A stretch of DNA of 64,000 nucleotides from an uncultured Bdellovibrionales bacterium (GTDB lineage Bacteria > Patescibacteriota > Minisyncoccia > Moranbacterales > UBA1568). Below the pieces are notes generated by a model. The model was not told the DNA's origin. It did not search any database and worked only from the letters and a program-made list of their open reading frames with translations. Within the stretch, counting starts at the first letter, position 1; each line of letters begins with the position of its first letter. Made by a program: the position numbers and the translations under genes. Positions 3,894 to 50,911 of this stretch are shown piece by piece. The stretch spans positions 34,770 through 98,769 of the forward strand of contig CAZOKB010000002.1 in the NCBI GenBank assembly GCA_964580285.1, given 5' to 3'.

Positions 3894-5951
3894 ATGCTAA
3901 AGGATGAGGGGGTAAAGTTGCGGGTAGTGATGTTCTCAGGAGGAAGGGGAACCGGTGTTCTGACAGAAGCGCTTTTGAAGTATCCAGATATAGAACTTAC
4001 ACTTCTGGTGAATACGTACGATGATGGTCTTTCTACGGGACTATTAAGGCGCTTTATTCCTGGTATGTTAGGTCCATCTGATGTACGAAAAAATATTTCT
4101 CGTTTTCTGAAAATTCGAAGCGATGCTGCTTCTCAGGCATTGCATTGGCTTATCGAATATCGTTTTCCAGAAGATATACAGACCGAGCGAGCATTGAATA
4201 TACTGAATGATTTTATCTCACTTGAGAACCGTAAAGTGATTACGGGCGAACTTTTATCTATGAGAGAAAAACTCTCTCTCGGGCAAGCTAAAAAAGCAAG
4301 TGAGTACTTAGCAGTTTTTCTTGCTTATTACACAGAACGCATTGCTGTTTCAGAATTCACTTTTCAAGATTGTTCTTTTGGAAATTTACTTTTTGCAGGA
4401 TGTTACTTGGTGAACGGAAATGATTTTAATAAAGCGATTAAAGATTTTTCTCAATTCGCAGAAATTGGTGATCGAGTATTAAATATCACAGATGGCGAAA
4501 ATCGAGTACTGGTTGCAATAAAAGAGAATGGACAGTATCTGCATGATGAAGCAAGTATTGTAGGTCCTCAGGATGCTTCTCGAATTCAAGAAATTTTCCT
4601 TTTACGAGATTATCTGGATAAAGCGACACATTCATTGAATGAATTTAAAATTGATAACGTCCGGTTTTTAAGGAATATTGAATCTCTTCCTCGAATTAGC
4701 CCAACAGCAGAAAAGGTGTTACAAGAGGCGGATATTATTATCTATGGCCCTGGGACACAATATTCATCGCTTCTTCCATCGTATCTAACTTCTGGTGTTG
4801 CGGAAATAATTCAAAAAAATACGCGTGCTGAAAAAATTTTTATCGCCAATATTGCACGTGATTATGATATTCTTGGCGAAGATGCAACTACTTTAGTGAA
4901 AGCCTTTTTGTTTAATATGAGCCGTAAGGTTGAAGGCATGGTGCGATGCCAAGATGTGGTGACCCGGTTCTTTTTTCAGAAACCTGAAGTAAACGAAAAC
5001 GAAGAAACCCCGTATGTTCCTTTTGACGCAAAGGCCTTTGAATATCCTCTAGAAAAAGTAGTATGGATTGATTGGGAGGGAGAGAAGGGTAAGCATTCTG
5101 GAAGCAAAACGATTTCTGAGCTCCTCTTGCTTGTTGAGGGTGCGCTGCAGAAGAAGGTTTCGCATGTTTCTCAAAAGGTTTCTATTATTGTTCCTGCGCT
5201 CAATGAGGAGCGGACAATAAAAAATACACTTCAAGATCTTGCTCGCTTTCAATTTTCTGGATTCTCTTTGGAAAAAGAAATTATTGTGATAGATGGTGGA
5301 TCAACAGATAAGACATACGAAATAGCGAGTGCAGAACCTACAGTAAGGGTATACCGGAGTAATGGAGGGAGAGGAAAAGCGCTTCGATTGGGGCTTGAAA
5401 AAGCAAAGGGGGATATTGCAGTTTTTTTTCCAGCAGATGCAGAATACCTTGTAGAAGATATCGCGCGAGTTGTTTCTCCGTTAGTGAGCCAAGAGTTCCC
5501 AGTAGTCTTCGGAAGTCGAGCTTTTCGTACTAATGATCTTAACGGAACACTGAAGCGGATTTACGGGAAGAAGGGATTTTTGTACTTTATCAGTAAATAT
5601 GGAGGAGTGCTTCTAAGCGTGCTGACATTAGTCATTTATCATCGTTTTGTTAGTGATCCATTGACGAGTCTTAAGGGCTTTAATTCACGTATTTTTCGTG
5701 ATCTTCAATTTACTCGTAGCGGTGTTGACTTTGATATGGAGCTTATCGCAAAAATCGCTCGGAAAAAATATGTTATTCTAGAAGTACCAGTGAGTTATAA
5801 GGCAAGAACTATCCAGGAAGGGAAAAAGATTACCGTACTTGATGGTTTGCGGTGTCTATGGACATTGCTACGTTTTTCTAGTTGGAAGCAAAAGAGAATA
5901 TCAGAAACCCAATATGCCAAAAGTATCAATCGTTATTCCAGCGTACAATGA
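3894..5951 (+). CDS. fusion protein: N-terminal CofD/YvcK (UPF0052) family domain + C-terminal family-2 glycosyltransferase
   Basis: N-term VVMFSGGRGTGVL...LTLLVNTYDDGLSTGLLRRF matches the GGxGT and DDGGSxGRLR signatures of the CofD/YvcK superfamily. C-term VSIIVPALNEERTI...IIVIDGGSTDKT...PADAEY is a canonical GT2 (DPM1-like). No Met/stop at the junction. Confidence 0.75.
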   Translation: MLKDEGVKLRVVMFSGGRGTGVLTEALLKYPDIELTLLVNTYDDGLSTGLLRRFIPGMLGPSDVRKNISRFLKIRSDAASQALHWLIEYRFPEDIQTERALNILNDFISLENRKVITGELLSMREKLSLGQAKKASEYLAVFLAYYTERIAVSEFTFQDCSFGNLLFAGCYLVNGNDFNKAIKDFSQFAEIGDRVLNITDGENRVLVAIKENGQYLHDEASIVGPQDASRIQEIFLLRDYLDKATHSLNEFKIDNVRFLRNIESLPRISPTAEKVLQEADIIIYGPGTQYSSLLPSYLTSGVAEIIQKNTRAEKIFIANIARDYDILGEDATTLVKAFLFNMSRKVEGMVRCQDVVTRFFFQKPEVNENEETPYVPFDAKAFEYPLEKVVWIDWEGEKGKHSGSKTISELLLLVEGALQKKVSHVSQKVSIIVPALNEERTIKNTLQDLARFQFSGFSLEKEIIVIDGGSTDKTYEIASAEPTVRVYRSNGGRGKALRLGLEKAKGDIAVFFPADAEYLVEDIARVVSPLVSQEFPVVFGSRAFRTNDLNGTLKRIYGKKGFLYFISKYGGVLLSVLTLVIYHRFVSDPLTSLKGFNSRIFRDLQFTRSGVDFDMELIAKIARKKYVILEVPVSYKARTIQEGKKITVLDGLRCLWTLLRFSSWKQKRISETQYAKSINRYSSVQ

Positions 5952-25804: not shown

Positions 25805-28081
25805 CTATTCTTCAAAATGATAGACGCGGACATACTGGGATGGCCGATCGTTAATATTAAGTTCAAACACAGGATCCGCTTTGGTATAGTACTGATCAAA
25901 ACGGATCAACCCAGGTTTTTGATGAGCGATTTCTGAGACCATCATTTTCGCGGTGCGGTTCTTGCGATCCGAAGAAACAACAATATAATCCAGTCCTTCT
26001 CGTCGAAGAGTTTCATAGTTGCGACCGCGCTTACAATGACCCACGAAGAATTTACAGACCCCGTCTTTGTCGGTCCAGACGAGGAGGTTTTTTGCGTCTG
26101 GAAGATTATTGAGGTATTGGGCGGCCTCATAGCTCCCTGAACCCATATCTTTCACATTCGTATGGTACTGATTTGGAAGGAGACTGGAGGCATAGGAGAG
26201 CGGGAAAGGAGTTGTGGCGAGCGTACCGGTACCGATAAGTAGTAAGAGAGTGGTTACCAGGAGTGCGGAATGGCGGCGTAGGAAAACGAAGCGGTGCTCG
26301 AGTGGTTTGAGTACCCAGGTGAGGGAAATGCCAGCCATGATGGCGGCGATAGGGAAGAGGATAATCTGATAGCGTACGATCATGGCCACATTGTTGACGG
26401 TAGCTCCGAGGTAGTAGAGGAGGATAAAAATGATGAAGTAGAAGGTAGATCGACCACGGACGCTTTCAAAAAAGGTCAGCTTGAGTAAGGCTATAGCCGC
26501 GGTAACCAGCAGGAAGAAAGCCAGGGGAAGAATACCAAAAATGAAAGGGTAGAAATTCGTGAGGAAGATGCCGATAAAATCACTGCGACTCCCGATAGTT
26601 TTCGGTGAAGCCAGAAGTTCGGAAAAATCATACGGGAGCATATGGTTCCAGGCGATAGTGAGTACGGCTAAGAGACTCACGCAAAAGAGAGCGCTCACAG
26701 TGATGGTTATGTACCGCTTGAAACGATCCAGAATGGCGAGGGCAGCGCTGACGATACGTGCGCGGTTAGCGAATTGATCAACCAGGATAAAGGCAATCAG
26801 CATGAGGAAAAGCGGTGCCACTTTTTCGAAGGCTTGACTGTACAGAGTGGAGGTGAGGATCTTGGAGGGTTTGATCCAGACCGCCGGAAAGAACGCGTAG
26901 AAAGTAGCGAGGGCGGCATAGATAAGGAGACCGAGTTCGATCAAGGAGCGCTTCAGGAAAACTCCAAATAACTGCTGCGTCGGCCGATGGTAGAGGTATT
27001 CGAGAAAGATGAGTCCGATAAAAAAGACAAAGAGAATATTGGCCACATATTTGGTCAGGAGAGCGAGGCCGAGAAAAACACCTGCCAGAATGAGGTAGCG
27101 AGCCAAGCGTTTTTTAAGGAAGAGGAGGTAGGAAAGGAGCGAAAGGGGAGTGAAAATCCACAGGAGCGAATCGGGGTTGATGATCTTTGCCATGCCGATG
27201 AGGATGGGTGAAGTGGCCAGAAAGGCATAAGAAAAAAGAGCGGTTTTTTTGCCGAAGAGACGCTCGAGAAAAAAGTAGAACAGAGGCAATAAAAGTGTGA
27301 TGACAATGAGTTCGGGAAGCCGGAAGGTAAGATAAAATGCTTCAATAGGATTGTTTTCATCGCTGCCCTTGATGTATTTGTGTTCCTTAGGAGCTTTGAA
27401 CCACATACCCGGACCAGTCGCCCAGGCGACCGTGATGCCTGGCTTATCGCTGATATTTGTTCCTTTCCAGTTGTGTTCTTCTATTTTATGCCAGTATTTA
27501 CCGATGCGTCCGTTATACCAGAGCGGTTCATCAACCGCAGCAAACTTGGTGAGTCGCACCATCGCGAAACTAAAGAAGATGAGGGTGCTCACGAAAATAA
27601 GCAGGAGCGTAATGGCTCCTTGGCGGCGGAACCATTCGCCTGGAGTGAGACCTCGGGGGGCGGAGGAGTTCGGTTGGGTAACGCGCATACTTGAGAGAGC
27701 AAGAGCGGAAATCAGGAATCCAGCGAGCATCATATAGGCGCTCTGTGCGATCTGGAACAGGTAGTGGAAATTTTTTGATTCAATAAGACCGTAGGTGAGA
27801 ATAAACCACGCCGGAAAAGTGGTGAACAATAGTTTACGCAGCAGTGCTCGCCAAGCGGTTGGCCGATTGTAATAGAACATGGCGCCGAGGAGAGCTGTGC
27901 CGAGCAAGGCAAACCCGGTATAAAAAAGATTATTGCTTTCGGCTATACGCAAGAAGGTCAGCGACGTTGTTTGGGGGGCAATGAAAAAAAGCGTATTGAT
28001 ACCAAGGAGTACGCCGATCACTGAGAAGAGACGATTTTCGAGGGTAGACAAAGTGGCTGCTAAGGGTTTCCCGAGTGTCAT
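25805..28081 (-). CDS. GT-C fold membrane glycosyltransferase, GT39/ArnT-like (paralog 1, with N-terminal extension)
   Basis: multi-TM N-half, FAAVDEPLWY loop motif after a TM helix analogous to the DE motif of PMT/ArnT; ORF stays open 130 codons upstream of the GT39-like core so the long start is retained. Confidence 0.55.
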   Translation of the reverse strand: MTLGKPLAATLSTLENRLFSVIGVLLGINTLFFIAPQTTSLTFLRIAESNNLFYTGFALLGTALLGAMFYYNRPTAWRALLRKLLFTTFPAWFILTYGLIESKNFHYLFQIAQSAYMMLAGFLISALALSSMRVTQPNSSAPRGLTPGEWFRRQGAITLLLIFVSTLIFFSFAMVRLTKFAAVDEPLWYNGRIGKYWHKIEEHNWKGTNISDKPGITVAWATGPGMWFKAPKEHKYIKGSDENNPIEAFYLTFRLPELIVITLLLPLFYFFLERLFGKKTALFSYAFLATSPILIGMAKIINPDSLLWIFTPLSLLSYLLFLKKRLARYLILAGVFLGLALLTKYVANILFVFFIGLIFLEYLYHRPTQQLFGVFLKRSLIELGLLIYAALATFYAFFPAVWIKPSKILTSTLYSQAFEKVAPLFLMLIAFILVDQFANRARIVSAALAILDRFKRYITITVSALFCVSLLAVLTIAWNHMLPYDFSELLASPKTIGSRSDFIGIFLTNFYPFIFGILPLAFFLLVTAAIALLKLTFFESVRGRSTFYFIIFILLYYLGATVNNVAMIVRYQIILFPIAAIMAGISLTWVLKPLEHRFVFLRRHSALLVTTLLLLIGTGTLATTPFPLSYASSLLPNQYHTNVKDMGSGSYEAAQYLNNLPDAKNLLVWTDKDGVCKFFVGHCKRGRNYETLRREGLDYIVVSSDRKNRTAKMMVSEIAHQKPGLIRFDQYYTKADPVFELNINDRPSQYVRVYHFEE

Positions 28082-31608: not shown

Positions 31609-31856
31609 TGCTGCATGGAGCGCTTTCATTTCTCGGCGCTCTCCATTTGACTTGCGGGTTGGAGGGTCCTGGCGACGATGCGCCAGAAGAGGGAGATTCC
31701 TTGGAGCGTGATTGCGCACGCGGCAAGAGTGAAGAAGAATGGATTCGGTGGTGTCACGGTGATTCCTTTCTTTGTGTTGAGGTTAAGTGGCTACTGCTCT
31801 TTTATTGTAGATCTGATATTTGGTGGCGTAAAGAAATTGTCAAGATGGTTTTTGGG

Positions 31857-31914
31857 AAAATAAAAGCCCTTCGGGAGGTCTCCTGATTTTCAGGGGGAAT
31901 TCCTCTCGAAGGGC
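31857..31914 (-). terminator. intrinsic terminator for high-GC small gene
   Basis: 13-bp stem (GCCCTTCGAGAGG / CCTCCCGAAGGGC, 1 mismatch) then TTTTATTTT on the minus strand. Confidence 0.45.
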
Positions 31915-31944
31915 AGTGTGCGCGGCTGTTTGGCCGCAGCTCGA

Positions 31945-32334
31945 TCAGCTGACGCCGCCGGTGCCGACCAGGCCGATGTTCGCAGCCGCGGCGAGCTCTT
32001 CGCGCGAGACGCCGATGGGCGGGGAGGCCGTCATGCCACCGAGCATCGTCTTGGAGTCGCCGGCACCGACGTTGATCATTGCGCGCTTGTCGACCTTGAT
32101 GGCCAGCGCGGTGGCGTCTCCGAAGCCACCGCCGGTGCCGTTCTTGGCGGTCAGGGCATTGGCGGGCGGCACAGACTTGGCGTTGTCGGCGTAGGCGTAC
32201 ATGCTGCCGGTTTCCTTGGCGACCGTGTTTTCGGCACTCTGCGTGACGGCAGCGGTCGGCGGGTCGGAAGCGGCGAAGGCAGCGGGCGCGGTCAGGGCAA
32301 CGAGGGCAGCGAGCAACAGGTGTTTCCGTTTCAT
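31945..32334 (-). CDS. small secreted protein (Sec signal peptide), very high GC, likely foreign origin
   Basis: MKRKHLLLAALVALTAPAAFA/AS signal peptide with AxA site; Gly/Ala-rich mature part; ~68% GC versus ~50% in flanks. Confidence 0.5.
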   Translation of the reverse strand: MKRKHLLLAALVALTAPAAFAASDPPTAAVTQSAENTVAKETGSMYAYADNAKSVPPANALTAKNGTGGGFGDATALAIKVDKRAMINVGAGDSKTMLGGMTASPPIGVSREELAAAANIGLVGTGGVS

Positions 32335-32397
32335 GATGCGGTCTCCTGTGACAGTGGATGGGTTTGCTGATTACAAACCTGAATCGATGTGTTGATT

Positions 32398-38161: not shown

Positions 38162-39664
38162 CTAGTACATAATCACCGAGATCGGCTGCATGCGGGCAAC
38201 AGGCTTCACAATCTGGTTCTCGATGACGCTTTCGATGACGTCGTCGGCGCGCTTGTAGTGCGAGGAGTCCTGCTCGATGACCTTGGAAGAGCGGCCGTTG
38301 TAGAGACGGACGCCTTTAGCTTCAAGTTTTTTGTCGAGCTCAGCTTTGTTTTCTGGGATGACATCCTCGGTTTTCTTAGCGGATTTGCCAGCACCATGAT
38401 TACAAGAATAGAAGCTGGAATCATTGTCGTCCGTGCCTACACAAAGATAGGCTTCCGTTGACATGGAAGTCGGAATGAAAGCTGGTTCGCCGGTCTCCTT
38501 GAAAACCGGATGATCCGACATGCGGGAGGGACCGTAGGCGCGACTGGTACCGTTGCGGTGCACCCAGATATTTTTTCCGAAGTGCTCTTCTTGCGACACG
38601 AGAATATGGGGCATGTCGTAGATGAGTTCCATCTCAATGTCGCGACCAAGGACGCGCTCCGCAGTCTTGGCGACGTTGTGCGCGATGACAGCCCGGTTGG
38701 CATGGGCGAAGTTCGAACAGGCATTGCGAGCAGCCATATAGAGCTTGCCGTCCTCGCCTTCACCATCAAAAGCGATGAGTGGTTCTTGCTTCCCGAAATC
38801 AGAAGCGCGGATTTTCTCGGCAATGAGCGAGACGATTTTCTTGTACGGCGTGCTCCAGAAGAAGCGCCCGATATTCATAAGGATAGCGGTGGATTTATGT
38901 TCCCGTTTCTTCGCAGTGTACATGTACATAGTGTACTGGCCGAGGATGCCAGACCCGCAGTGAATCATGAAGACATAGTCACCATTCTTCACGCCAAGCT
39001 TCTCTGCAATCGCTGCATCTTCGATGCCGGTGATTTTCATGAGATCAAGGAAGTGATTGCCGGCCGCACCGAGAATACCGGAGCGGAATTGAGCAAAGAA
39101 GAGGAAGAGCGGAGGAATGATATTGGTGATTTCTTTCTTCGTCATCTCGCGATCGAAAAAATTGCCGCGATCAAGCGAGTTCTCAGCTTCGTGTTTGGTC
39201 TTGATACCGAGGTGTTGGATGAGCGGTTGTATGCCCTGGCGGCAGATATCTACGATGACCCGGAAGGGGAGGTAGGTGCCGATGTAGGCTTTGGTGGGCA
39301 CGACGGGAACGAGCGCCTCAAAAAGCCGCTTGATTTCTTCCTCAGTGGTATTGTTTTCGTTCAAGTTGGTCCGGACCAAGCGCATGCCGCAGGCGGGGTC
39401 GCTATCGTTCAATTGAGGAAGAATATATTTTTCGGAAGTGACCGTGGTGCCAGTCGCGTTTTTGCGGCCTGGTTTGCTATGCACATCGGCCATAGCCGCG
39501 ATATGGTGGAAAACCTGAGCGTTACTCGCGACGCTTTCAAGTTGGACAAGCGTCTCCTCATTCGGCAAGAGTGCGTCTTGGACATGGAAAACAACGGACA
39601 CTTTCATTTTCTCGGTTTGGAGTTCGCTCCGGTACCCGGAAACTTTTTTGAGAGCATTGATCAT
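38162..39664 (-). CDS. rtcB: RNA-splicing ligase RtcB
   Basis: AMADVHSKPGRKNATGTTV (metal-binding His region), DSDPACGMRLVRTNL, SCNHGAGKSAKK (HGAGR-like), ANRAVIAHNV; start set at MINALKK. Confidence 0.85.
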   Translation of the reverse strand: MINALKKVSGYRSELQTEKMKVSVVFHVQDALLPNEETLVQLESVASNAQVFHHIAAMADVHSKPGRKNATGTTVTSEKYILPQLNDSDPACGMRLVRTNLNENNTTEEEIKRLFEALVPVVPTKAYIGTYLPFRVIVDICRQGIQPLIQHLGIKTKHEAENSLDRGNFFDREMTKKEITNIIPPLFLFFAQFRSGILGAAGNHFLDLMKITGIEDAAIAEKLGVKNGDYVFMIHCGSGILGQYTMYMYTAKKREHKSTAILMNIGRFFWSTPYKKIVSLIAEKIRASDFGKQEPLIAFDGEGEDGKLYMAARNACSNFAHANRAVIAHNVAKTAERVLGRDIEMELIYDMPHILVSQEEHFGKNIWVHRNGTSRAYGPSRMSDHPVFKETGEPAFIPTSMSTEAYLCVGTDDNDSSFYSCNHGAGKSAKKTEDVIPENKAELDKKLEAKGVRLYNGRSSKVIEQDSSHYKRADDVIESVIENQIVKPVARMQPISVIMY

Positions 39665-39674
39665 ATATTTTTTT

Positions 39675-40790
39675 CTAAAGGGATGCGTAAATATCTTCGT
39701 ACTGTCGGACCGTGTCTTTGAGGTTAAAGTACCGTTCCACAAAGGTGCGGGCATGGCGACCGAGCGAAGAGCGTACCTCCGGGTTATCTCTTAAGTAAGC
39801 AATTTTTTCGGAGAGCTCTCCTTTTGAACCTCGTGGTATGGTAACGCAGATATCGTTTCCTGAAAACTCTTTGAAAATAGGGAGATCGGAAAGGATGACC
39901 GGTTTGCCGCAAGCATAGGCTTCGATGATGACGAGCGGTACATCAAACTTTCCTTTCATATCTCCGACGGGGAAAATCATAACATCAGCCAAATTATAGA
40001 GCTTGGGCATGTCGGCATAGGTATCGGTAAAACGAATACGATCGAGCATACCAGCCTGCTTAAAACGTTCAGTAATTTCAATTTTCTTGAGACGATCATC
40101 GTCGTGCTTGACTCGGCAGGCGAAGACGAATTTCATATTCGATGCAGGGTGTTGCTGATAGTGTTCAATGAGCCACTCGGTGAGCATGTCGGTCGCACCG
40201 AGGCGGACGTACTCGCCAGGGTACATGACTACGAAATCGTCCGCAGTTAAGTTGAAGAAAGTTAGGGCTTCGGGATCCTTGGATTGCGGTTGGTAGAGCG
40301 AGAGATCGGTACCCGGATAGATGCGGGTAACATTATCGAAACCGACGTGCTCGAGGATGTCTTTGGAATAATCCGAGTAGACGATGATGCGATCGGCAAA
40401 GAGGAGTTGTTTCCACTGCTTCACTCCGTAGAGGTCCTCACGCAAGGTGGCAATGGTCTGAACGGTCTTGCCGTGCGTCGGTCGGCTGAAGAAATTGATG
40501 AGGGAAGTGTTCTTACGGGTCGGCGTGAAGAGATAGTGCGTGATATCGTATTTTCTGCGGAGGCCGCGGAGCGTTCGGAGGAGACGAAGCTTTTCCGAGA
40601 AATCCAACTCATTCTTGGTATAGCAAGGAATCTGGGTGACATGTGTGGGAAGATCAGAGAGCCAGACAGGTGTAGTCAGGATACTGACATGGTGCTCGTG
40701 CATGGATTTTGCCAAGAAGTAGGCGAAGTTTTTTGAGGCTTCATCCCAGGGTGGGACCAATGGACGAGTGGCCAGGAGAATTTTTTTCAT
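39675..40790 (-). CDS. GT4-like glycosyltransferase
   Basis: GKFDVPLVIIEAYACGKPVILSDLPIFKEF...RGS in GT1-fold C-terminal domain. Confidence 0.7.
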   Translation of the reverse strand: MKKILLATRPLVPPWDEASKNFAYFLAKSMHEHHVSILTTPVWLSDLPTHVTQIPCYTKNELDFSEKLRLLRTLRGLRRKYDITHYLFTPTRKNTSLINFFSRPTHGKTVQTIATLREDLYGVKQWKQLLFADRIIVYSDYSKDILEHVGFDNVTRIYPGTDLSLYQPQSKDPEALTFFNLTADDFVVMYPGEYVRLGATDMLTEWLIEHYQQHPASNMKFVFACRVKHDDDRLKKIEITERFKQAGMLDRIRFTDTYADMPKLYNLADVMIFPVGDMKGKFDVPLVIIEAYACGKPVILSDLPIFKEFSGNDICVTIPRGSKGELSEKIAYLRDNPEVRSSLGRHARTFVERYFNLKDTVRQYEDIYASL

Positions 40791-46637: not shown

Positions 46638-47918
46638 CTACCGGCCGATACCCTTGTAGCGGATGCCGGCTTTAAGGAAAGCATCCTTGTCGAGGCAGTT
46701 CTTGCCATCAACAATAGCCTTGATCTTGTGTTTTTTGAGGAGGGCAGGGGTGATGAGTTCCTTGAATTCCCGATGATCGGTCGCGAGGACAAGCGCAGCG
46801 GATTTCTTGAGGATGGCATCGAGTGACTTGGCGGTGGAGAGGCGGAGGAGGTGCGGGTCATAGGTGATGACCTTAGCCTTATGCTCTTCAAGGTGTTCGA
46901 TGATATCAATAGCTGGAGATTCGCGGAGGTCATCGATATTCGCCTTGTAGGCCAGACCGAGTACGCCGACCGCCGTTCCGTTTAAGGCAATCTTAGCGTC
47001 GTTCAGGAGGTCCTGCAGGAGCTCAACCGTGTAGGCGGGCATGGAATTATTGATTTCACGGGCGATTTTGAGAAAACGATGGTCAAAGCCGGATTGTTTG
47101 GCACGCTCGATCAGATAATACGGGTCGACTGGGATGCAGTGGCCACCGACGCCACAGGACGGAAAGTGCGGCATAAAGGAAAAGGGCTTGGTCGAAGCGC
47201 CCTGAATGACATCCTTCACATCAATATCAAGGACATCAAACGAGCGAGCGAGTTCATTCACGAAGGCGATATTGATATCGCGGAAGGAGTTCTCCACGAC
47301 TTTCACGGCTTCGGCTTCTCGGATGGATTTCATCGGGCGAATTTCTCCGTCGACGATCGCGCGGTAGAATTCGAGTGCCAGTTTGAGACCTTTGGCATCG
47401 AAAGCGCCGACGACGCGGGGGATATTGGTAACATTCCATTTCTCATCACCCGGATTGATGCGTTCAGGGCAATGAGCAATGAAGACGTCCTTCCCGAGCT
47501 TGTGACCGTGCTTCTCAAAAATCGGACGAATAACCTCTTCAGAGACGCCTGGGTTGACGGTTGATTCAAGGACGACGAGTGCTCCCTTCTTGAGGTGTTC
47601 GGCGGAGACAGTTGCAGCCGAAATGACCGGCTCAAGGTCCGGGTAGTACATTTCATCTACCGGAGTCGGGACACAAATGAGGACGATATCCGCATCGCAG
47701 AGACGCTTCGGATCAGTGGTGGCTTCAAAGGGAAATTTGGGGATATTTTCAATAAGATAACGGTCTTCGATCGGACTTTTCTTCTTTTTGAGTACGGCAA
47801 CTTTTTCTGTATGGGTGTCGAAGCCGATAACCTTGTACCCGCGTTCGACCGCCCGCACTGCCAGAGGAAGACCAACATACCCGAGACCGATCACCGCCAC
47901 TGTTTTCTGCATAGTCAT
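46638..47918 (-). CDS. nucleotide-sugar dehydrogenase (UDP-GlcNAc/ManNAc 6-dehydrogenase-like, WbpA/WecC family)
   Basis: VAVIGLGYVGLPLAVRAVERGYKV Rossmann motif, catalytic Cys region GGHCIPVDP. Confidence 0.85.
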   Translation of the reverse strand: MTMQKTVAVIGLGYVGLPLAVRAVERGYKVIGFDTHTEKVAVLKKKKSPIEDRYLIENIPKFPFEATTDPKRLCDADIVLICVPTPVDEMYYPDLEPVISAATVSAEHLKKGALVVLESTVNPGVSEEVIRPIFEKHGHKLGKDVFIAHCPERINPGDEKWNVTNIPRVVGAFDAKGLKLALEFYRAIVDGEIRPMKSIREAEAVKVVENSFRDINIAFVNELARSFDVLDIDVKDVIQGASTKPFSFMPHFPSCGVGGHCIPVDPYYLIERAKQSGFDHRFLKIAREINNSMPAYTVELLQDLLNDAKIALNGTAVGVLGLAYKANIDDLRESPAIDIIEHLEEHKAKVITYDPHLLRLSTAKSLDAILKKSAALVLATDHREFKELITPALLKKHKIKAIVDGKNCLDKDAFLKAGIRYKGIGR

Positions 47919-48006: not shown

Positions 48007-48630
48007 ATGATTCTGACTCCGAAAATTGAGAAAGCTATCACTCGGTCCGCCGAACTGCATCGGCATCAGGAGCGCAAGGGGAATGGAGCACCCTATATCG
48101 TGCATCCGTATTCAGTGGCGTTTCTTCTAGCGCACTATACGGAAGATGAAGATATTATTTGCGCCGGTCTCTTACATGATATCTTGGAAGACGTGCCGAG
48201 CTACGGAGCGCAGCGGATGCAAGAGGAGTTTGGTGAACGGGTATACCGGATTGTGCGAGAGGTGACGGAAGACCGTGATCCGACTATGGGCTGGCGACTA
48301 TTGCCGCGTCAGCGTCAGTGGAAGGAACGCAAAGTACGTTATATTGAAAATCTCAAGAACGACAGCGAAGAAGCGCTGCTCATCGCCTGTGCCGACAAGA
48401 TCCAGAACCTCCGTTCATTAGTAGATACCTATGCCTTGCGAGGGGACGGGCTCTGGTCGAGTTTTCGCTCGGGTAAAGAAGAGATGTATTGGTTTTATAC
48501 GACCGTGTTTGAGGTGATTGCTGAGCGGTTCCATCACCCGCTGGTCCACGAGTTCAAAAAATCCTTAGAAGAAGCAAAAAAACAGGTTTTTCTAGGGGGT
48601 AGGAGCGGAACTATTGACAGGTCTATTTAA
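48007..48630 (+). CDS. RelA/SpoT-type HD-domain (p)ppGpp hydrolase-like protein (small alarmone hydrolase-like)
   Basis: AELHRHQERKGNGAPYIVHPYSVA...ICAGLLHDILEDVP matches the SpoT hydrolase HD motif (HxxQxR...PYxxHP...LLHDxxED). Confidence 0.7.
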   Translation: MILTPKIEKAITRSAELHRHQERKGNGAPYIVHPYSVAFLLAHYTEDEDIICAGLLHDILEDVPSYGAQRMQEEFGERVYRIVREVTEDRDPTMGWRLLPRQRQWKERKVRYIENLKNDSEEALLIACADKIQNLRSLVDTYALRGDGLWSSFRSGKEEMYWFYTTVFEVIAERFHHPLVHEFKKSLEEAKKQVFLGGRSGTIDRSI

Positions 48631-48879
48631 AAGTGCTATACTGTTTTTTCATCCTGAAATTTGACGGATGAGAAGAAGGATGGTAAAAACCTTCTTAAAG
48701 AGTTCTTTGGGAATTTTCAGTGATGCGACAATAGGCACAAGAGTGATCATCGGTAGCTTTTTTGTTCGGAAAGAAGATTTCGGAGCAAAGAAGCTACCGA
48801 CGTGGTAGTTGTAGTACCCCCTTTTGAGGAGAAACTGCATGTCCACCCATTCGCCCCCCGTCAATGTCGATGAGTCTTA

Positions 48880-49375
48880 TATCTTTTTCGTCAAGTCCGC
48901 CGCCAGCATCGCCATGGGCATCAGCAAGATCTGATCCGGCACACGCGGCCGCTGATCCTCAGTAGGAAAAATCCTTGCTCGAGAGAGTAGGGTGCTTTCC
49001 ATGAGCTGATAGGATCGTCTGCCACCGGGTCTGCAAGTCCAGCCGGCGCCGGTCGCGGGACCATATTTTCGGTCGACCACAAGTCTTCCGGAGATTCGTT
49101 GCCCGCGACCGGCCTCCCGGCACCACCTTGCGCGTAAGCAGTGGCATGCGAGCCGCTGTCGTCTTCGGCATCTCGCGCGCCGGCCTATCTCCCTAAAGTT
49201 TGGGAGGCCGCCGCGCACGCCGTACGCGCATCACAGGAGGCAAGTATGACCATCGCGTCAACATGTATTCCCGCTTGTCTCGGTCCGCCACCACTCGCTA
49301 GCCAGCACCGCGACGCTTGGGCCGTCGTATGGACCGGCTGGCCTGATTGATTCAGGCTGAGACACTCCATCAACG
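48880..49375 (+). ncRNA. candidate structured ncRNA (unclassified), ~65% GC, ORF-poor
   Basis: no credible ORF on either strand; dense perfect stems (e.g. 12-bp GCCGGTCGCGGG 49048-59 / CCCGCGACCGGC 49102-13); ends in a terminator; boundaries approximate. Confidence 0.3.
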
Positions 49376-49420
49376 CTCCCGTGTGAATCTCTCATGATTC
49401 GCCCGGGAGTTTTTCTTTTT
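49376..49420 (+). terminator. intrinsic terminator at 3' end of GC-rich segment
   Basis: CTCCCG-(21 nt)-CGGGAG followed by TTTTTCTTTTT. Confidence 0.5.
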
Positions 49421-49675
49421 CTGAATACAAGTATATTTTCATTGTGAGAGATCTTGTGTGTAAGCAGGCGTTCTCTTGGTATCCGAGTTTTCTTTTTGGG
49501 AGGCTCTTTTTGTCTGAGCGGGCATGGTTTCCGTGTGAAACACGGAAGAGCTCAAACAAAAAATGAGGAAGCGAAGCGGCTGGGCGAAGCGCACGTACTC
49601 CCAAAAGGGAAATTTGGATACCAAGAGGTTTTGCTATTTTTTCTTCGTTCTCTTTTGCTGATACAATAGATTTAT

Positions 49676-50911
49676 ATGAAAATTGGCATCAATGCATCAT
49701 TTTTGCGGAAACCGGAAACCGGTATCGGACAGGTGACGGCTAACTTTTTGGAAAAGTTAGCCGAATATGGAATGCAGAATATCGAATATCGAAAAGAATC
49801 CCAAAAATCTACATTCGATATTCAACATTCTACATTCATCCTGTATGCCCAGGAGCCGACTGATATCGCATTACCCGAGAACTTCGAGGTAAAAACCTTT
49901 CTCCCGCGCTGGTGGAGGCGCGATGATGTGCCGCGGCAGTGGCTCTGGGAACGAGAGCTGGCTAAACGAGCGGTTGCAGACGGCTGTGATGTCTTCTTGT
50001 CTCTCTACCAGTCCGCAACGATCTTTCCAAAATCCAAAATCCCTGCCTTGCCGGCAGGCAGGAAAAATCAAACATCGTCGCCTCGACATATCATGGTGGT
50101 GCACGATATTATCCCGAAGCTGTTCCCGGAGTATGTCGGCAGGCTTTCTCAACAGTGGCACTGGAGAGCTATTGAAAGAGGTATTCAAAAGGCGGATCGC
50201 TTAGTAGCCGTCTCTCAGTCAACGAAGAATGACTCAATACAGTATTTGCATATTCCTGAAGAGCGACTGATAGTGGCCTACCCAGGAGTCGCACCAGTAT
50301 TTCATCGGAACACTGAAGATGCGGAAGTGGACGCGGTCTTGTCTCGCTACGGACTTGAGCGGGGGTATATTTACCACGGCGGCGGATTGGAGATTCGAAA
50401 AAATACGCGCGCGGTACTGGAAGCCTATACGCTCTTGCGCCGCCAGTATACGACAGAGCCGTGCCCCTCGCTGGTGATTTCTGGACAGATCCATGCTCAG
50501 ACGAATCGGCTCGCCACGGATGTCGAAGGGATAGCGGATACTTTGGGACTCACAGAACATGTGCATATTTTAGGGCGAGTACCTCTAGAAGATTTACCAG
50601 CGCTCTACCGCGGAGCGGCTGTATTTGTCTACCCATCGCTCTATGAAGGGTTGGGTTTGCCACCACTCGAGGCATTTTCACAGGCAACACCAGTTATTGC
50701 GGCTCGAGCAGCTTCGCTTCCGGAAGTGTGTGGGCGGGCGGCGCTTTTCATTGATCCTCGGCGCCCGGATGCGATAGCCCTTGCTTTGGAGCGCGTATTG
50801 AAGGAAGCTACATTGCGGGAAGAACTCAGTCGTGAAGGACAGACACGTCTGCAGGCTTTTTCGTATGAGTACTTTACTCGTGTTGTTATGGATCAATGCT
50901 TGTCTTTATGA
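49676..50911 (+). CDS. GT4 glycosyltransferase
   Basis: YEGLGLPPLEAFSQATPVIAARAASLPEVCG...ALFI. Confidence 0.8.
   Translation: MKIGINASFLRKPETGIGQVTANFLEKLAEYGMQNIEYRKESQKSTFDIQHSTFILYAQEPTDIALPENFEVKTFLPRWWRRDDVPRQWLWERELAKRAVADGCDVFLSLYQSATIFPKSKIPALPAGRKNQTSSPRHIMVVHDIIPKLFPEYVGRLSQQWHWRAIERGIQKADRLVAVSQSTKNDSIQYLHIPEERLIVAYPGVAPVFHRNTEDAEVDAVLSRYGLERGYIYHGGGLEIRKNTRAVLEAYTLLRRQYTTEPCPSLVISGQIHAQTNRLATDVEGIADTLGLTEHVHILGRVPLEDLPALYRGAAVFVYPSLYEGLGLPPLEAFSQATPVIAARAASLPEVCGRAALFIDPRRPDAIALALERVLKEATLREELSREGQTRLQAFSYEYFTRVVMDQCLSL

What the first reader, a model, noticed from the sequence alone, without database searches (positions are those of the whole stretch)
48740..49420. ORF-free, ~65% GC, palindrome-dense segment ending in an intrinsic terminator: candidate structured ncRNA next to a (p)ppGpp-hydrolase-like gene
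Between the HD/SpoT-like gene (ends 48630) and the next GT4 (49676), no ORF has a credible start, composition or homology. The 48880-49375 stretch is about 65% GC in a 50% GC background. It contains multiple perfect or near-perfect stems, and the segment ends in a hairpin plus T-run on the + strand, consistent with a discrete transcript. I tested it mentally against tmRNA; it lacks the T-arm GGTTCGA motif and a tag ORF. I also tested it against RNase P RNA; it has a GCAAGUCC...GGACCGGCU pair that could mimic P4, but the other universal blocks are not convincingly present. I therefore leave it unclassified.
Basis: partly seen in the sequence, partly recalled or inferred. Interest (0 to 1): 0.5.

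Follow-up and report, generated by a model that had tools for sequence, protein, structure and literature searches.

The report
Lineage-specific hairpin-rich small transcription unit
The GC-rich stretch is real and folds unusually well, but it is not a known or widely conserved RNA: it is the fast-changing body of a small accessory transcription unit found only in a few Moranbacteria-like (candidate phyla radiation) lineages, whose one solidly conserved part is a 24-base-pair RNA hairpin near its 5' end.

Summary
The observation largely holds. Positions 48880-49375 are 61% GC against a 45% GC window. There is no long ORF, no codon periodicity and no protein homologue. Folding is significantly better than in shuffles, and a canonical intrinsic terminator sits at 49375-49421. 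"ORF-free" is too strong: two short ORFs (31 and 34 aa) have strong Shine-Dalgarno sites.

Rfam and ARAGORN find nothing, so this is not RNase P RNA or tmRNA.

Comparison of the same HD-GT4 junction in 13 other lineages shows a promoter-to-terminator cassette. A near-consensus promoter overlaps the HD stop codon, and a homologous terminator sits before GT4's own promoter.
- Two lineages, including the closest relative, have almost nothing between promoter and terminator.
- Four lineages share a leader with a 24-bp hairpin (window 48748-48802). It has five compensatory pairs and an invariant U.G wobble.
- The body downstream is mostly unalignable between lineages. Only 49181-49341 matches a separately promoted unit in one relative. 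Helices H3 and H4 are unique to this species.

Best reading, at moderate confidence: an accessory, roughly 770-nt structured RNA carrying short translated ORFs, with no link to the HD gene. Function is unknown, and the number of relatives is too small for covariation analysis of the body.

The parts
48614..48642 (+). Promoter P1: TTGACA, 17-nt spacer, TGcTATACT. It overlaps the HD stop codon (48628-48630).
   Evidence: 11/12 matches plus an extended -10 TG. An equivalent motif sits at the same place in L120, L130, L121, L013 and L125 (read).
48650..48670 (+). 5'-terminal stem-loop (CAUCC/GGAUG). It contains the block AAATTTGACGGATG, which is shared with L013 and L125.
   Evidence: pair probability 0.75. 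Searches show the identical block in L013 and L125.
48748..48802 (+). Conserved leader hairpin of 24 bp. Its 5' arm, GCUUUUUUGUYCGGAA, is nearly invariant.
   Evidence: 92% of cells paired, 5 pairs changed on both sides, covariation 0.267 against 0.185 in shuffles (1/500 reach it), and 45-63% paired in the slid controls. U.G at columns 27-57 is invariant; pair probability 0.99; the covariance model scores 73-80 bits on the + strand and 29-42 bits on the - strand, and finds a single copy per locus.
48802..48846 (+). Helix H2. It encloses the Shine-Dalgarno site GAGGAG (48826-48831) and the start codon of sORF1.
   Evidence: pair probability 0.92-0.94.
48839..48934 (+). sORF1, 31 aa: MSTHSPPVNVDESYIFFVKSAASIAMGISKI.
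   Evidence: Gene callers annotated it in L002, L003, L005 and L007. GC by codon position in this frame is 0.35/0.47/0.78. It is a singleton cluster in the protein collection. A Shine-Dalgarno site plus ATG at the same relative place in L011, L121 and L125 encodes unrelated peptides.
48953..49017 (+). Helix H3, a composite GC-rich stem-loop found only in this species.
   Evidence: pair probability 0.89-0.97. No similarity in any relative.
49042..49121 (+). Helix H4: a 5-bp, a perfect 12-bp and an 8-bp stem. Found only in this species.
   Evidence: inverted repeat I6, 100% complementary. (pair probability 0.99-1.00). No similarity in any relative.
49166..49222 (+). Helix H5, the 5'-UTR hairpin of the sORF2 module. 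It is homologous to the 5'-UTR of 'unit 2' in L125.
   Evidence: window 49181-49248 matches L125 3231-3303 at 70% (E 2e-4), where neutral third-codon-position identity is 0.39; a partly shared architecture, but the covariation term is about 0.
49235..49350 (+). Shine-Dalgarno site AGGAGG (49235-49240) and sORF2 (49246-49350, 34 aa: MTIASTCIPACLGPPPLASQHRDAWAVVWTGWPD).
   Evidence: The block AGGAGGCA(A/G)GTATG is conserved in L125. A colinear second match links 49305-49341 to L125 3333-3369 at 73%. The peptide similarity is seen only in a hand alignment and is not found by tblastn.
49276..49364 (+). Helix H6, a three-tier stem overlapping sORF2.
   Evidence: pair probability 0.89-0.93.
49375..49421 (+). 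Intrinsic terminator: stems GCUCCCG/CGGGAGU and GUGAAUC/GAUUCGC, followed by a U-run.
   Evidence: pair probability 0.99-1.00. Homologous to the terminators of L011, L120 and L130 through the inner motif TCGAA..GATTCG, with the outer stem changed on both sides.
49471..49629 (+). A separate rod-like hairpin of about 160 nt, found only in this species, between the terminator and the GT4 promoter. It lies outside the finding.
   Evidence: inverted repeats I1 and I5. (z -6.25 on the + strand). (z -5.85 on the - strand). No counterpart in L011 or L121.
49659..49667 (+). GT4's own extended -10 promoter (TGaTACAAT), 8 nt before the ATG at 49676. This implies a leaderless mRNA.
   Evidence: The motif is conserved in every relative with a GT4 gene. 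L011 and L121 are 90% identical across it.

Best explanation
Positions 48650-49420 are one accessory, independently transcribed RNA of about 770 nt. It is a lineage-restricted insertion between two elements that are conserved at this junction: a strong sigma-70-type promoter overlapping the end of the HD gene, and an intrinsic terminator upstream of GT4's own leaderless promoter.

The RNA is modular:
1. A 5' leader whose 24-bp hairpin is conserved by base-pairing in four other Moranbacteria-like lineages. I infer that it acts as a stabilising or processing stem, for example an RNase III-type site or 5'-end protection.
2. A Shine-Dalgarno-led 31-codon ORF whose start is partly buried in helix H2.
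3. Two stable GC-rich stem-loops (H3, H4) unique to this species.
4. A module made of hairpin H5, an exposed AGGAGG site, a 34-codon ORF and the terminator. This module is homologous to a separately promoted mini-unit in one relative.

I read it as a small structured mRNA or dual-function RNA that carries short translated ORFs. It evolves by rapid replacement, insertion and deletion of its body. It is not a housekeeping or catalytic RNA.

Shown here: the unit boundaries by sequence signals, RNA-level conservation of the leader hairpin, lack of conservation of most of the body, absence from the nearest relatives, and no known family.

Inferred: transcription itself, translation of the sORFs, and the role of the hairpin.
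For: - Promoter with 11/12 matches plus an extended -10 TG; terminator pair probability about 1.0.
- Leader hairpin covariation with an invariant U.G wobble, which places the structure on the + strand RNA.
- The same promoter and a homologous terminator are present with almost nothing between them in L120 and L130. HD and GT4 abut in L017, L025 and L128.
- Constraint calibrated against third codon positions of the HD gene. For L013 vs L125 the neutral value is 0.67, against leader 0.88, post-ORF hairpins 0.90 and terminator 0.86. For the window vs L125 the neutral value is 0.39, against 0.70-0.73 for 49181-49248 and 49305-49341.
- A strong Shine-Dalgarno site plus ATG recurs after the hairpin in the window, L011, L121 and L125, and before sORF2 in the window and L125. 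Only 7 of 47 native genes in the window have even a weak Shine-Dalgarno match.
- sORF1 shows GC3 enrichment of 0.78.
- The body folds better than shuffles on the + strand: z -3.9.
Against: - No expression data were available.
- The peptides are not detectably conserved. tblastn finds no cross-lineage match. My hand alignment of sORF2 with the L125 ORF has differences at codon positions 1/2/3 of 6/9/9 out of 23, so there is no third-position bias.
- L011 and L121 share nucleotide similarity across a frame-shifting indel.
- In L013 both sORFs are lost while the flanking hairpins are kept at 86-90% identity. That favours an RNA-level function over a peptide function.
- An open frame of 34 codons in 61% GC sequence is not improbable by chance (about 0.37 by my own estimate).
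- H3 and H4 have no homologue, so nothing shows they are functional.
Confidence: 0.4

Rival explanations
1. Purely non-coding accessory RNA. The conserved leader hairpin and the other GC-rich hairpins are the functional parts, for example as a protein-binding or regulatory sRNA. The short ORFs and their Shine-Dalgarno-like motifs are incidental or structural.
For: - The hairpins are better conserved than the ORFs between L013 and L125: 0.86-0.90 against 0.37, and sORF2 is deleted in L013.
- sORF2 shows no third-position bias and no peptide match (and hand alignment).
- Positive covariation for the leader hairpin.
- Fold z-score of -3.9 for the window body and -4.3 for L013 unit 2.
Against: - A hexamer Shine-Dalgarno site at optimal spacing from an ATG occurs twice here and again in relatives. 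By my estimate the chance expectation is about 0.01 per 500 nt each.
- The body is unalignable and its fold z-score is about 0 in L011 and L121.
- No Rfam family matches.
- The unit is absent from the nearest relatives.
Confidence: 0.27
2. Non-functional or selfish DNA. The gap between a gene's stop codon and its terminator is a safe site that has accumulated foreign GC-rich fragments and palindromic (MITE-like) insertions. Only the promoter, the terminator and perhaps the hairpin matter.
For: - Presence/absence polymorphism and very different contents at the same junction: nothing, a 166-174-aa ORF, a 37-aa membrane peptide, or the leader unit.
- H3, H4 and the 160-nt rod at 49471-49629 are unique to this species.
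- The segments next to the hairpin are less similar than synonymous sites: 0.37-0.42 against 0.56-0.67.
- The genome holds at least one other foreign-looking GC-rich island.
- The window's hairpin is closer to L013's (0.82) than to L011's (0.73), opposite to the HD protein identities.
Against: - Genomes of candidate phyla radiation bacteria are compact.
- The unit is 99.8-100% identical in ten loci from independent samples.
- No second copy of any part is found in the 64-kb window.
- No match to plasmids or phages.
- No period-3 relic of a gene.
- The leader and the sORF2 module are conserved far above the neutral level.
Confidence: 0.2
3. Long regulatory 5' leader (an attenuator or processive-antitermination element) of the downstream cell-envelope polysaccharide operon (GT4, Wzy, GT4, LytR-CpsA-Psr, GT2). 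Read-through of the terminator would be controlled by the hairpin or by translation of the sORFs.
For: - The promoter-then-terminator arrangement directly upstream of the operon is conserved in all lineages, including the minimal ones.
- The operon's content is established.
- The sORF2 stop codon lies 24 nt before the terminator stem in both the window and L125.
Against: - GT4 has its own strongly conserved extended -10 promoter placed for a leaderless mRNA.
- The terminator is strong.
- No alternative antiterminator pairing was identified.
- No Rfam match to known antitermination or leader RNAs.
- The minimal lineages have only about 12 nt before the terminator.
Confidence: 0.1
4. Divergent housekeeping RNA (RNase P RNA, tmRNA, 6S or SRP RNA), or a relic of a protein-coding gene.
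For: P4-like strings at 49033-49040 and 49331-49339, plus high GC and stable structure.
Against: - No Rfam hit to any of these families even at E<=10; ARAGORN finds nothing.
- The region is absent in L120 and L130 and unalignable in other relatives.
- No period-3 signal.
- No protein homologues.
Confidence: 0.02

Closest known systems
Dual-function sRNAs and small structured mRNAs that encode short peptides (for example SgrS/SgrT, RNAIII/hld, SR1/SR1P; named from general knowledge)
   Same: A short, independently promoted and terminated transcript with stable stem-loops and embedded Shine-Dalgarno-led ORFs of a few tens of codons. It is lineage-restricted.
   Different: There is no sequence or structural homology to any of them (no Rfam hit). 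No target or base-pairing region was identified. The peptides are not conserved between lineages. The body is far more variable than in those families.
Type I toxin-antitoxin toxin mRNAs (hok/sok-like; named from general knowledge)
   Same: It sits in a variable intergenic site, has a strong promoter and a highly structured 5' region that partly buries the ribosome-binding site of a short ORF, and shows a patchy distribution among close relatives. At the same junction L123 carries a Shine-Dalgarno-led 37-aa ORF with a hydrophobic stretch and a basic tail.
   Different: The window's peptides are not clear transmembrane toxins. No antisense promoter was found. The leader hairpin is absent from L123.
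GC-rich intergenic-region ncRNA candidates found with the Breaker-laboratory approach (DIMPL; PMC8723152, abstract seen)
   Same: It was detected by the same signature: a long intergenic region that is GC-rich relative to the genome and folds stably.
   Different: Those candidates are accepted only when many representatives show covariation. Here only the leader hairpin passes such a test, and the GC-rich body does not recur.
Leader and processive-antitermination RNAs of polysaccharide operons (EAR, and the leader hairpins associated with LoaP, a NusG paralogue; named from general knowledge)
   Same: It lies upstream of a glycosyltransferase/Wzy/LytR-CpsA-Psr cluster and pairs a conserved hairpin with an intrinsic terminator.
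   Different: There is no Rfam match. The operon has its own conserved promoter after the terminator. No NusG paralogue was seen among the neighbouring genes I scanned.

Membership tests
Bacterial RNase P RNA (Rfam RF00010/RF00011) | Match to the covariance model (universal core with helix P4 and conserved regions CR-I to CR-V) | tested here: not met
   No hit at the gathering score in the window and none at E<=10 in 48550-49750.
Bacterial RNase P RNA (Rfam RF00010/RF00011) | Essential gene conserved in close relatives | tested here: not met
   The segment is missing in L120 and L130 and cannot be aligned in L011, L121 or L013.
tmRNA | tRNA-like domain plus a tag reading frame | tested here: not met
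   ARAGORN finds no tRNA or tmRNA in the window. No Rfam hit.
Any curated Rfam 15 family | Score at or above the family's gathering threshold | tested here: not met
   Zero hits in the window and in six related loci. Only sub-threshold chance matches appear at permissive E-values.
Intrinsic (Rho-independent) terminator | GC-rich stem-loop directly followed by a U-run on the transcribed strand | tested here: met
   14 bp at 49375-49410 with pair probability about 1.0, followed by UUUUUCUUUUU.
Conserved structured RNA element (leader hairpin) | Base pairs kept through compensatory changes in independent lineages | tested here: met
   5 of 24 pairs changed on both sides, 92% of cells paired, and the result exceeds both the shuffled and the slid controls. 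Only five sequences were available.
Conserved structured RNA (GC-rich body, H3-H6) | Homologues with covarying helices | tested here: inconclusive
   H3 and H4 have no homologue. H5 has two homologues, a partly shared fold and a covariation term of about 0. There are too few sequences to decide.
Small protein-coding gene (sORF) | Ribosome-binding site and start codon conserved at the same position in relatives | tested here: met
   A Shine-Dalgarno site plus ATG follows the hairpin in the window, L011, L121 and L125. AGGAGGCA(A/G)GTATG is shared by the window and L125. Both are lost in L013.
Small protein-coding gene (sORF) | Peptide conserved, with substitutions biased to third codon positions | tested here: not met
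   No cross-lineage tblastn match. Differences in the sORF2 hand alignment are 6/9/9 by codon position. No database homologues.
Type I toxin-antitoxin | Hydrophobic toxin peptide plus an overlapping or adjacent antisense RNA gene | tested here: not met
   No minus-strand promoter was found in 48400-49800. The window's peptides are not clearly membrane-spanning when read directly.
Pseudogene or relic of acquired coding DNA | Residual codon periodicity or translated similarity to proteins | tested here: not met
   Period-3 power is 0.76 against 10-13 for real genes. No family or homologue hits. No plasmid or phage similarity.
Repeated mobile element (MITE/REP) | Multiple copies in the genome | tested here: inconclusive
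   No second copy in the 64-kb window. The rest of the genome was not available.

The most novel reading that the evidence does not exclude
The conserved promoter and 24-bp hairpin could mark a cassette-like site in Moranbacteria-related bacteria. Downstream of it, GC-rich 'cargo' would be exchanged or captured faster than synonymous sites change. That would make it a new kind of hairpin-anchored variable RNA locus, for example a recombination or capture site, or a guide- or decoy-type RNA, rather than an ordinary small gene.
Probability: 0.06. Interest if true: 0.7.

Novelty: new member of a known kind. Interest (0 to 1): 0.3.

Why it matters
Non-coding and small-ORF content is almost unstudied in candidate phyla radiation bacteria. 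This locus offers a concrete, lineage-restricted transcription unit with one RNA hairpin supported by covariation. It also shows a junction that repeatedly gains and loses small genes. A second point is practical: in this genome a GC-rich, well-folding spacer is not enough to call a conserved structured RNA, because most of the signal here is species-specific. The practical value is modest unless expression data or more relatives reveal a function.

Tried and rejected
- **Known RNA families.** RNase P RNA, tmRNA, 6S, SRP, riboswitches, introns and every other Rfam family gave no hit at the gathering score or at E<=10. ARAGORN found nothing.
- **Pseudogene relic.** No period-3 signal, no Pfam or NCBIfam match, and no homologue for the 69-aa ORF. 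The 113-aa ORF hit only a tandem-repeat artefact protein.
- **Plasmid or phage origin.** No blastn match.
- **Repeated element.** No other copy in the window.
- **Pattern scans for the hairpin.** The metagenome scan returned only the same species (L106) plus chance hits. The viral-contig scan returned nothing.
- **Same-species contigs for covariation.** They are 99.8-100% identical, so uninformative. L011 and L012 differ only by the length of a C-run.
- **Functional link to the HD gene.** Rejected, because other lineages have HD and GT4 adjacent.
- **Diversity-generating retroelement, retron or integron ideas.** No reverse transcriptase or integrase was found among the 17 neighbouring proteins scanned between 35.7 and 59.3 kb. 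Not every ORF in that span was scanned.
- **Assembly chimera.** Rejected, because independent assemblies agree.
- **My first impression that the sORF2 peptides are homologous.** Downgraded, because tblastn does not recover the match.

Full report
**Observation**

The spacer between the HD_4/HD gene (48007-48630) and the GT4 gene (49676-50911) is 1045 nt.
- Positions 48880-49375 are 61.3% GC, against 45.2% for the window and 49% for the 5-kb flanks. Only 0.4% of 496-nt windows are this GC-rich.
- The region has no long ORF. Its codon periodicity power is 0.76, against 10.7-13.2 for three real genes, one of them a 68% GC gene.
- It has no Pfam or NCBIfam match.
- Its two longest frames have no real homologues among billions of proteins.
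- It folds better than dinucleotide shuffles. The z-score is -6.1 for 48740-49420. For the body alone it is -3.9 on the + strand and -2.0 on the - strand, while the GC-rich coding control gives 0 to +1.
- Seven local helices have pair probability of about 0.9 or higher. The last is a canonical intrinsic terminator at 49375-49421.
- The sequence is not an assembly artefact. Ten loci from independent samples hold the spacer at 99.8-100% identity.

- GC is about 61%, not 65%, and the background is 45-49%.
- The region is not strictly ORF-free. GAGGAG, 7 nt, then ATG opens a 31-codon ORF at 48839. AGGAGG, 5 nt, then ATG opens a 34-codon ORF at 49246.

**Known families**

Rfam 15 gives no hit at the gathering score in the whole window. 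Only chance matches appear at E<=10 around the region. ARAGORN finds no tRNA or tmRNA. Homologous loci also give nothing.

**Unit boundaries**

A near-consensus promoter (TTGACA, 17 nt, TGcTATACT, at 48614-48642) overlaps the HD stop codon. Together with the terminator it defines a + strand unit of about 770 nt. GT4 has its own extended -10 element (TGaTACAAT, 49659-49667) 8 nt before its ATG. That element is conserved in all relatives and implies a leaderless mRNA.

**Comparative evidence**

HD and GT4 homologues place the organism among Moranbacteria-like Patescibacteria. I recovered the same junction from 13 other lineages.
- In L017, L025 and L128/L129 the two genes abut.
- In L120 (HD 85% identical, the nearest relative) and L130-L133 the spacer is about 100 nt. 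It holds the same promoter, about 12 nt, a small terminator and the GT4 promoter. The inner motif of that terminator (TCGAA..GATTCG) matches the terminators of the window and of L011.
- L123 carries a Shine-Dalgarno-led 37-aa ORF with a hydrophobic stretch and a basic tail.
- L126 carries a 166-aa ORF.
- In L015, L016 and L122 the gene downstream of HD is different, and GT4 does not follow.
- Four lineages share the window's leader: L011/L012 (HD 72%), L121 (71%), L013 (66%) and L125.

So the promoter and terminator are the ancestral frame. The leader and body form an insertion/deletion polymorphism inside that frame.

**What is conserved**

The 24-bp hairpin at 48748-48802 is the one element present in all five lineages that carry the unit.
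- On the five-sequence alignment, 92% of cells pair and 5 pairs have changes on both sides. The covariation score is 0.267, against 0.185 in shuffles (1 of 500 reach it). Slid controls pair only 45-63%.
- An invariant U.G and several other wobble pairs place the structure on the + strand RNA. The covariance model scores 73-80 bits on the + strand and 29-42 bits on the - strand.
- There is a single copy per locus.

I calibrated constraint against third codon positions of the HD gene.

| Pair | Neutral identity | Conserved segments | Weakly similar segments |
|---|---|---|---|
| L013 vs L125 | 0.67 | leader 0.88; post-ORF hairpins 0.90; first terminator 0.86 | ORF1 region 0.37; sORF2 deleted in L013 |
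| L011 vs L121 | 0.56 | hairpin 0.79; GT4 promoter 0.90 | ORF 0.42; 3' region 0.38 |
| Window vs L125 | 0.39 (saturated) | leader 67% over 190 nt; 49181-49248 70% (E 2e-4); 49305-49341 73% | rest of the body unalignable |

Segment identities for the first two pairs come, and the sORF2 deletion. The two window segments 49181-49248 and 49305-49341 align with L125's separately promoted 'unit 2'. So the 3' third of the window's body (H5, the Shine-Dalgarno site, sORF2) is an old, constrained module. H3 and H4 (48953-49121) have no counterpart anywhere.

**Coding or non-coding?**

For translation:
- Strong Shine-Dalgarno sites at ideal spacing occur twice in the window and recur in L011, L121 and L125.
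- Only 7 of 47 native genes in the window show even a weak Shine-Dalgarno match.
- sORF1 has GC3 of 0.78 and was annotated by gene callers.

Against a peptide function:
- No cross-lineage peptide similarity is detectable.
- My hand alignment of sORF2 shows no third-position bias.
- L011 and L121 keep nucleotide similarity across a frame shift.
- L013 has lost both ORFs while keeping the hairpins.

I therefore rank 'structured small mRNA or dual-function RNA' first (0.40). 'Pure ncRNA' is close behind (0.27), followed by 'tolerated selfish or foreign insertions' (0.20) and 'operon leader or attenuator' (0.10).

**Relation to the HD gene**

None is apparent. The unit is absent or different in most HD-GT4 junctions. 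The surrounding genes form a cell-envelope polysaccharide cluster.

**Verdict**

This is a real, discrete feature that is partly constrained at the RNA level. It is lineage-specific and modular, and it is not a member of any described RNA family. The GC-rich palindromic body that prompted the finding is mostly species-specific. On present data it cannot be called a conserved structured ncRNA.

Noticed in passing
window 31945-32334 (- strand); GC-rich island 31850-32370: This is the only other GC-rich island in the window (65-70% GC). It is a real 129-aa gene with a signal-peptide-like N-terminus (MKRKHLLLAALVALTAPAAFAA), a Shine-Dalgarno site, GC3 of about 0.85-0.90 and strong period-3 signal. 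It looks horizontally acquired. It has no Pfam family and sits in a 3-member cluster seen on 21 contigs.
   Followed up: partly
window 49471-49629: A rod-like hairpin of about 160 nt (a 31-bp lower stem and nested upper stems), with z -6.25 on the + strand and -5.85 on the - strand. It lies between the unit's terminator and the GT4 promoter. It is specific to this species and may be flanked by GTT on both sides. It could be a MITE-like insertion or a separate small RNA.
   Followed up: partly
window, starts of 47 genes (for example 49676, 25805-28081, 46638-47918): Native genes almost never have a Shine-Dalgarno sequence (7 of 47 weak matches). Several have a -10-like TACAAT/TATAAG element a few bases before the ATG, which suggests widespread leaderless or Shine-Dalgarno-independent initiation in this organism.
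   Followed up: partly
L123 4361-4474: At the same HD-GT4 junction, a relative carries a Shine-Dalgarno-led 37-aa ORF with a hydrophobic stretch and a basic tail (MQVFLATVGPIVLVIFLGAILAYCLHLYDQRRKGRKS), followed by a terminator. This resembles a type I toxin.
   Followed up: no
L013 4599-5123; L125 768-2188; L126 3856-4356: Other lineages hold uncharacterised ORFs at this junction. L013 and L125 have a 174-aa ORF, which has no Pfam or NCBIfam match in L013. L126 has a 166-aa ORF. L125 also has a 66-aa ORF rich in hydrophobic residues and a 197-aa ORF with a signal-peptide-like start. The junction is a hotspot for small accessory genes.
   Followed up: partly
L011 about 5014-5020 vs L012: The only differences between two near-identical contigs in this spacer are three extra C residues in the poly-C arm of the terminator stem (C7 vs C10). 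This is homopolymer-length variation in a terminator.
   Followed up: no
L013 5615-5795 and L125 3165-3450: In these relatives a second mini-unit has its own extended -10 promoter (TGTGGTATAAT) and its own terminator. L125 keeps a 23-codon Shine-Dalgarno-led ORF there, while L013 has deleted it but kept the 5' hairpins.
   Followed up: yes
window 38162-39754 (- strand): An RtcB RNA ligase gene lies within the glycosyltransferase-rich region.
   Followed up: no
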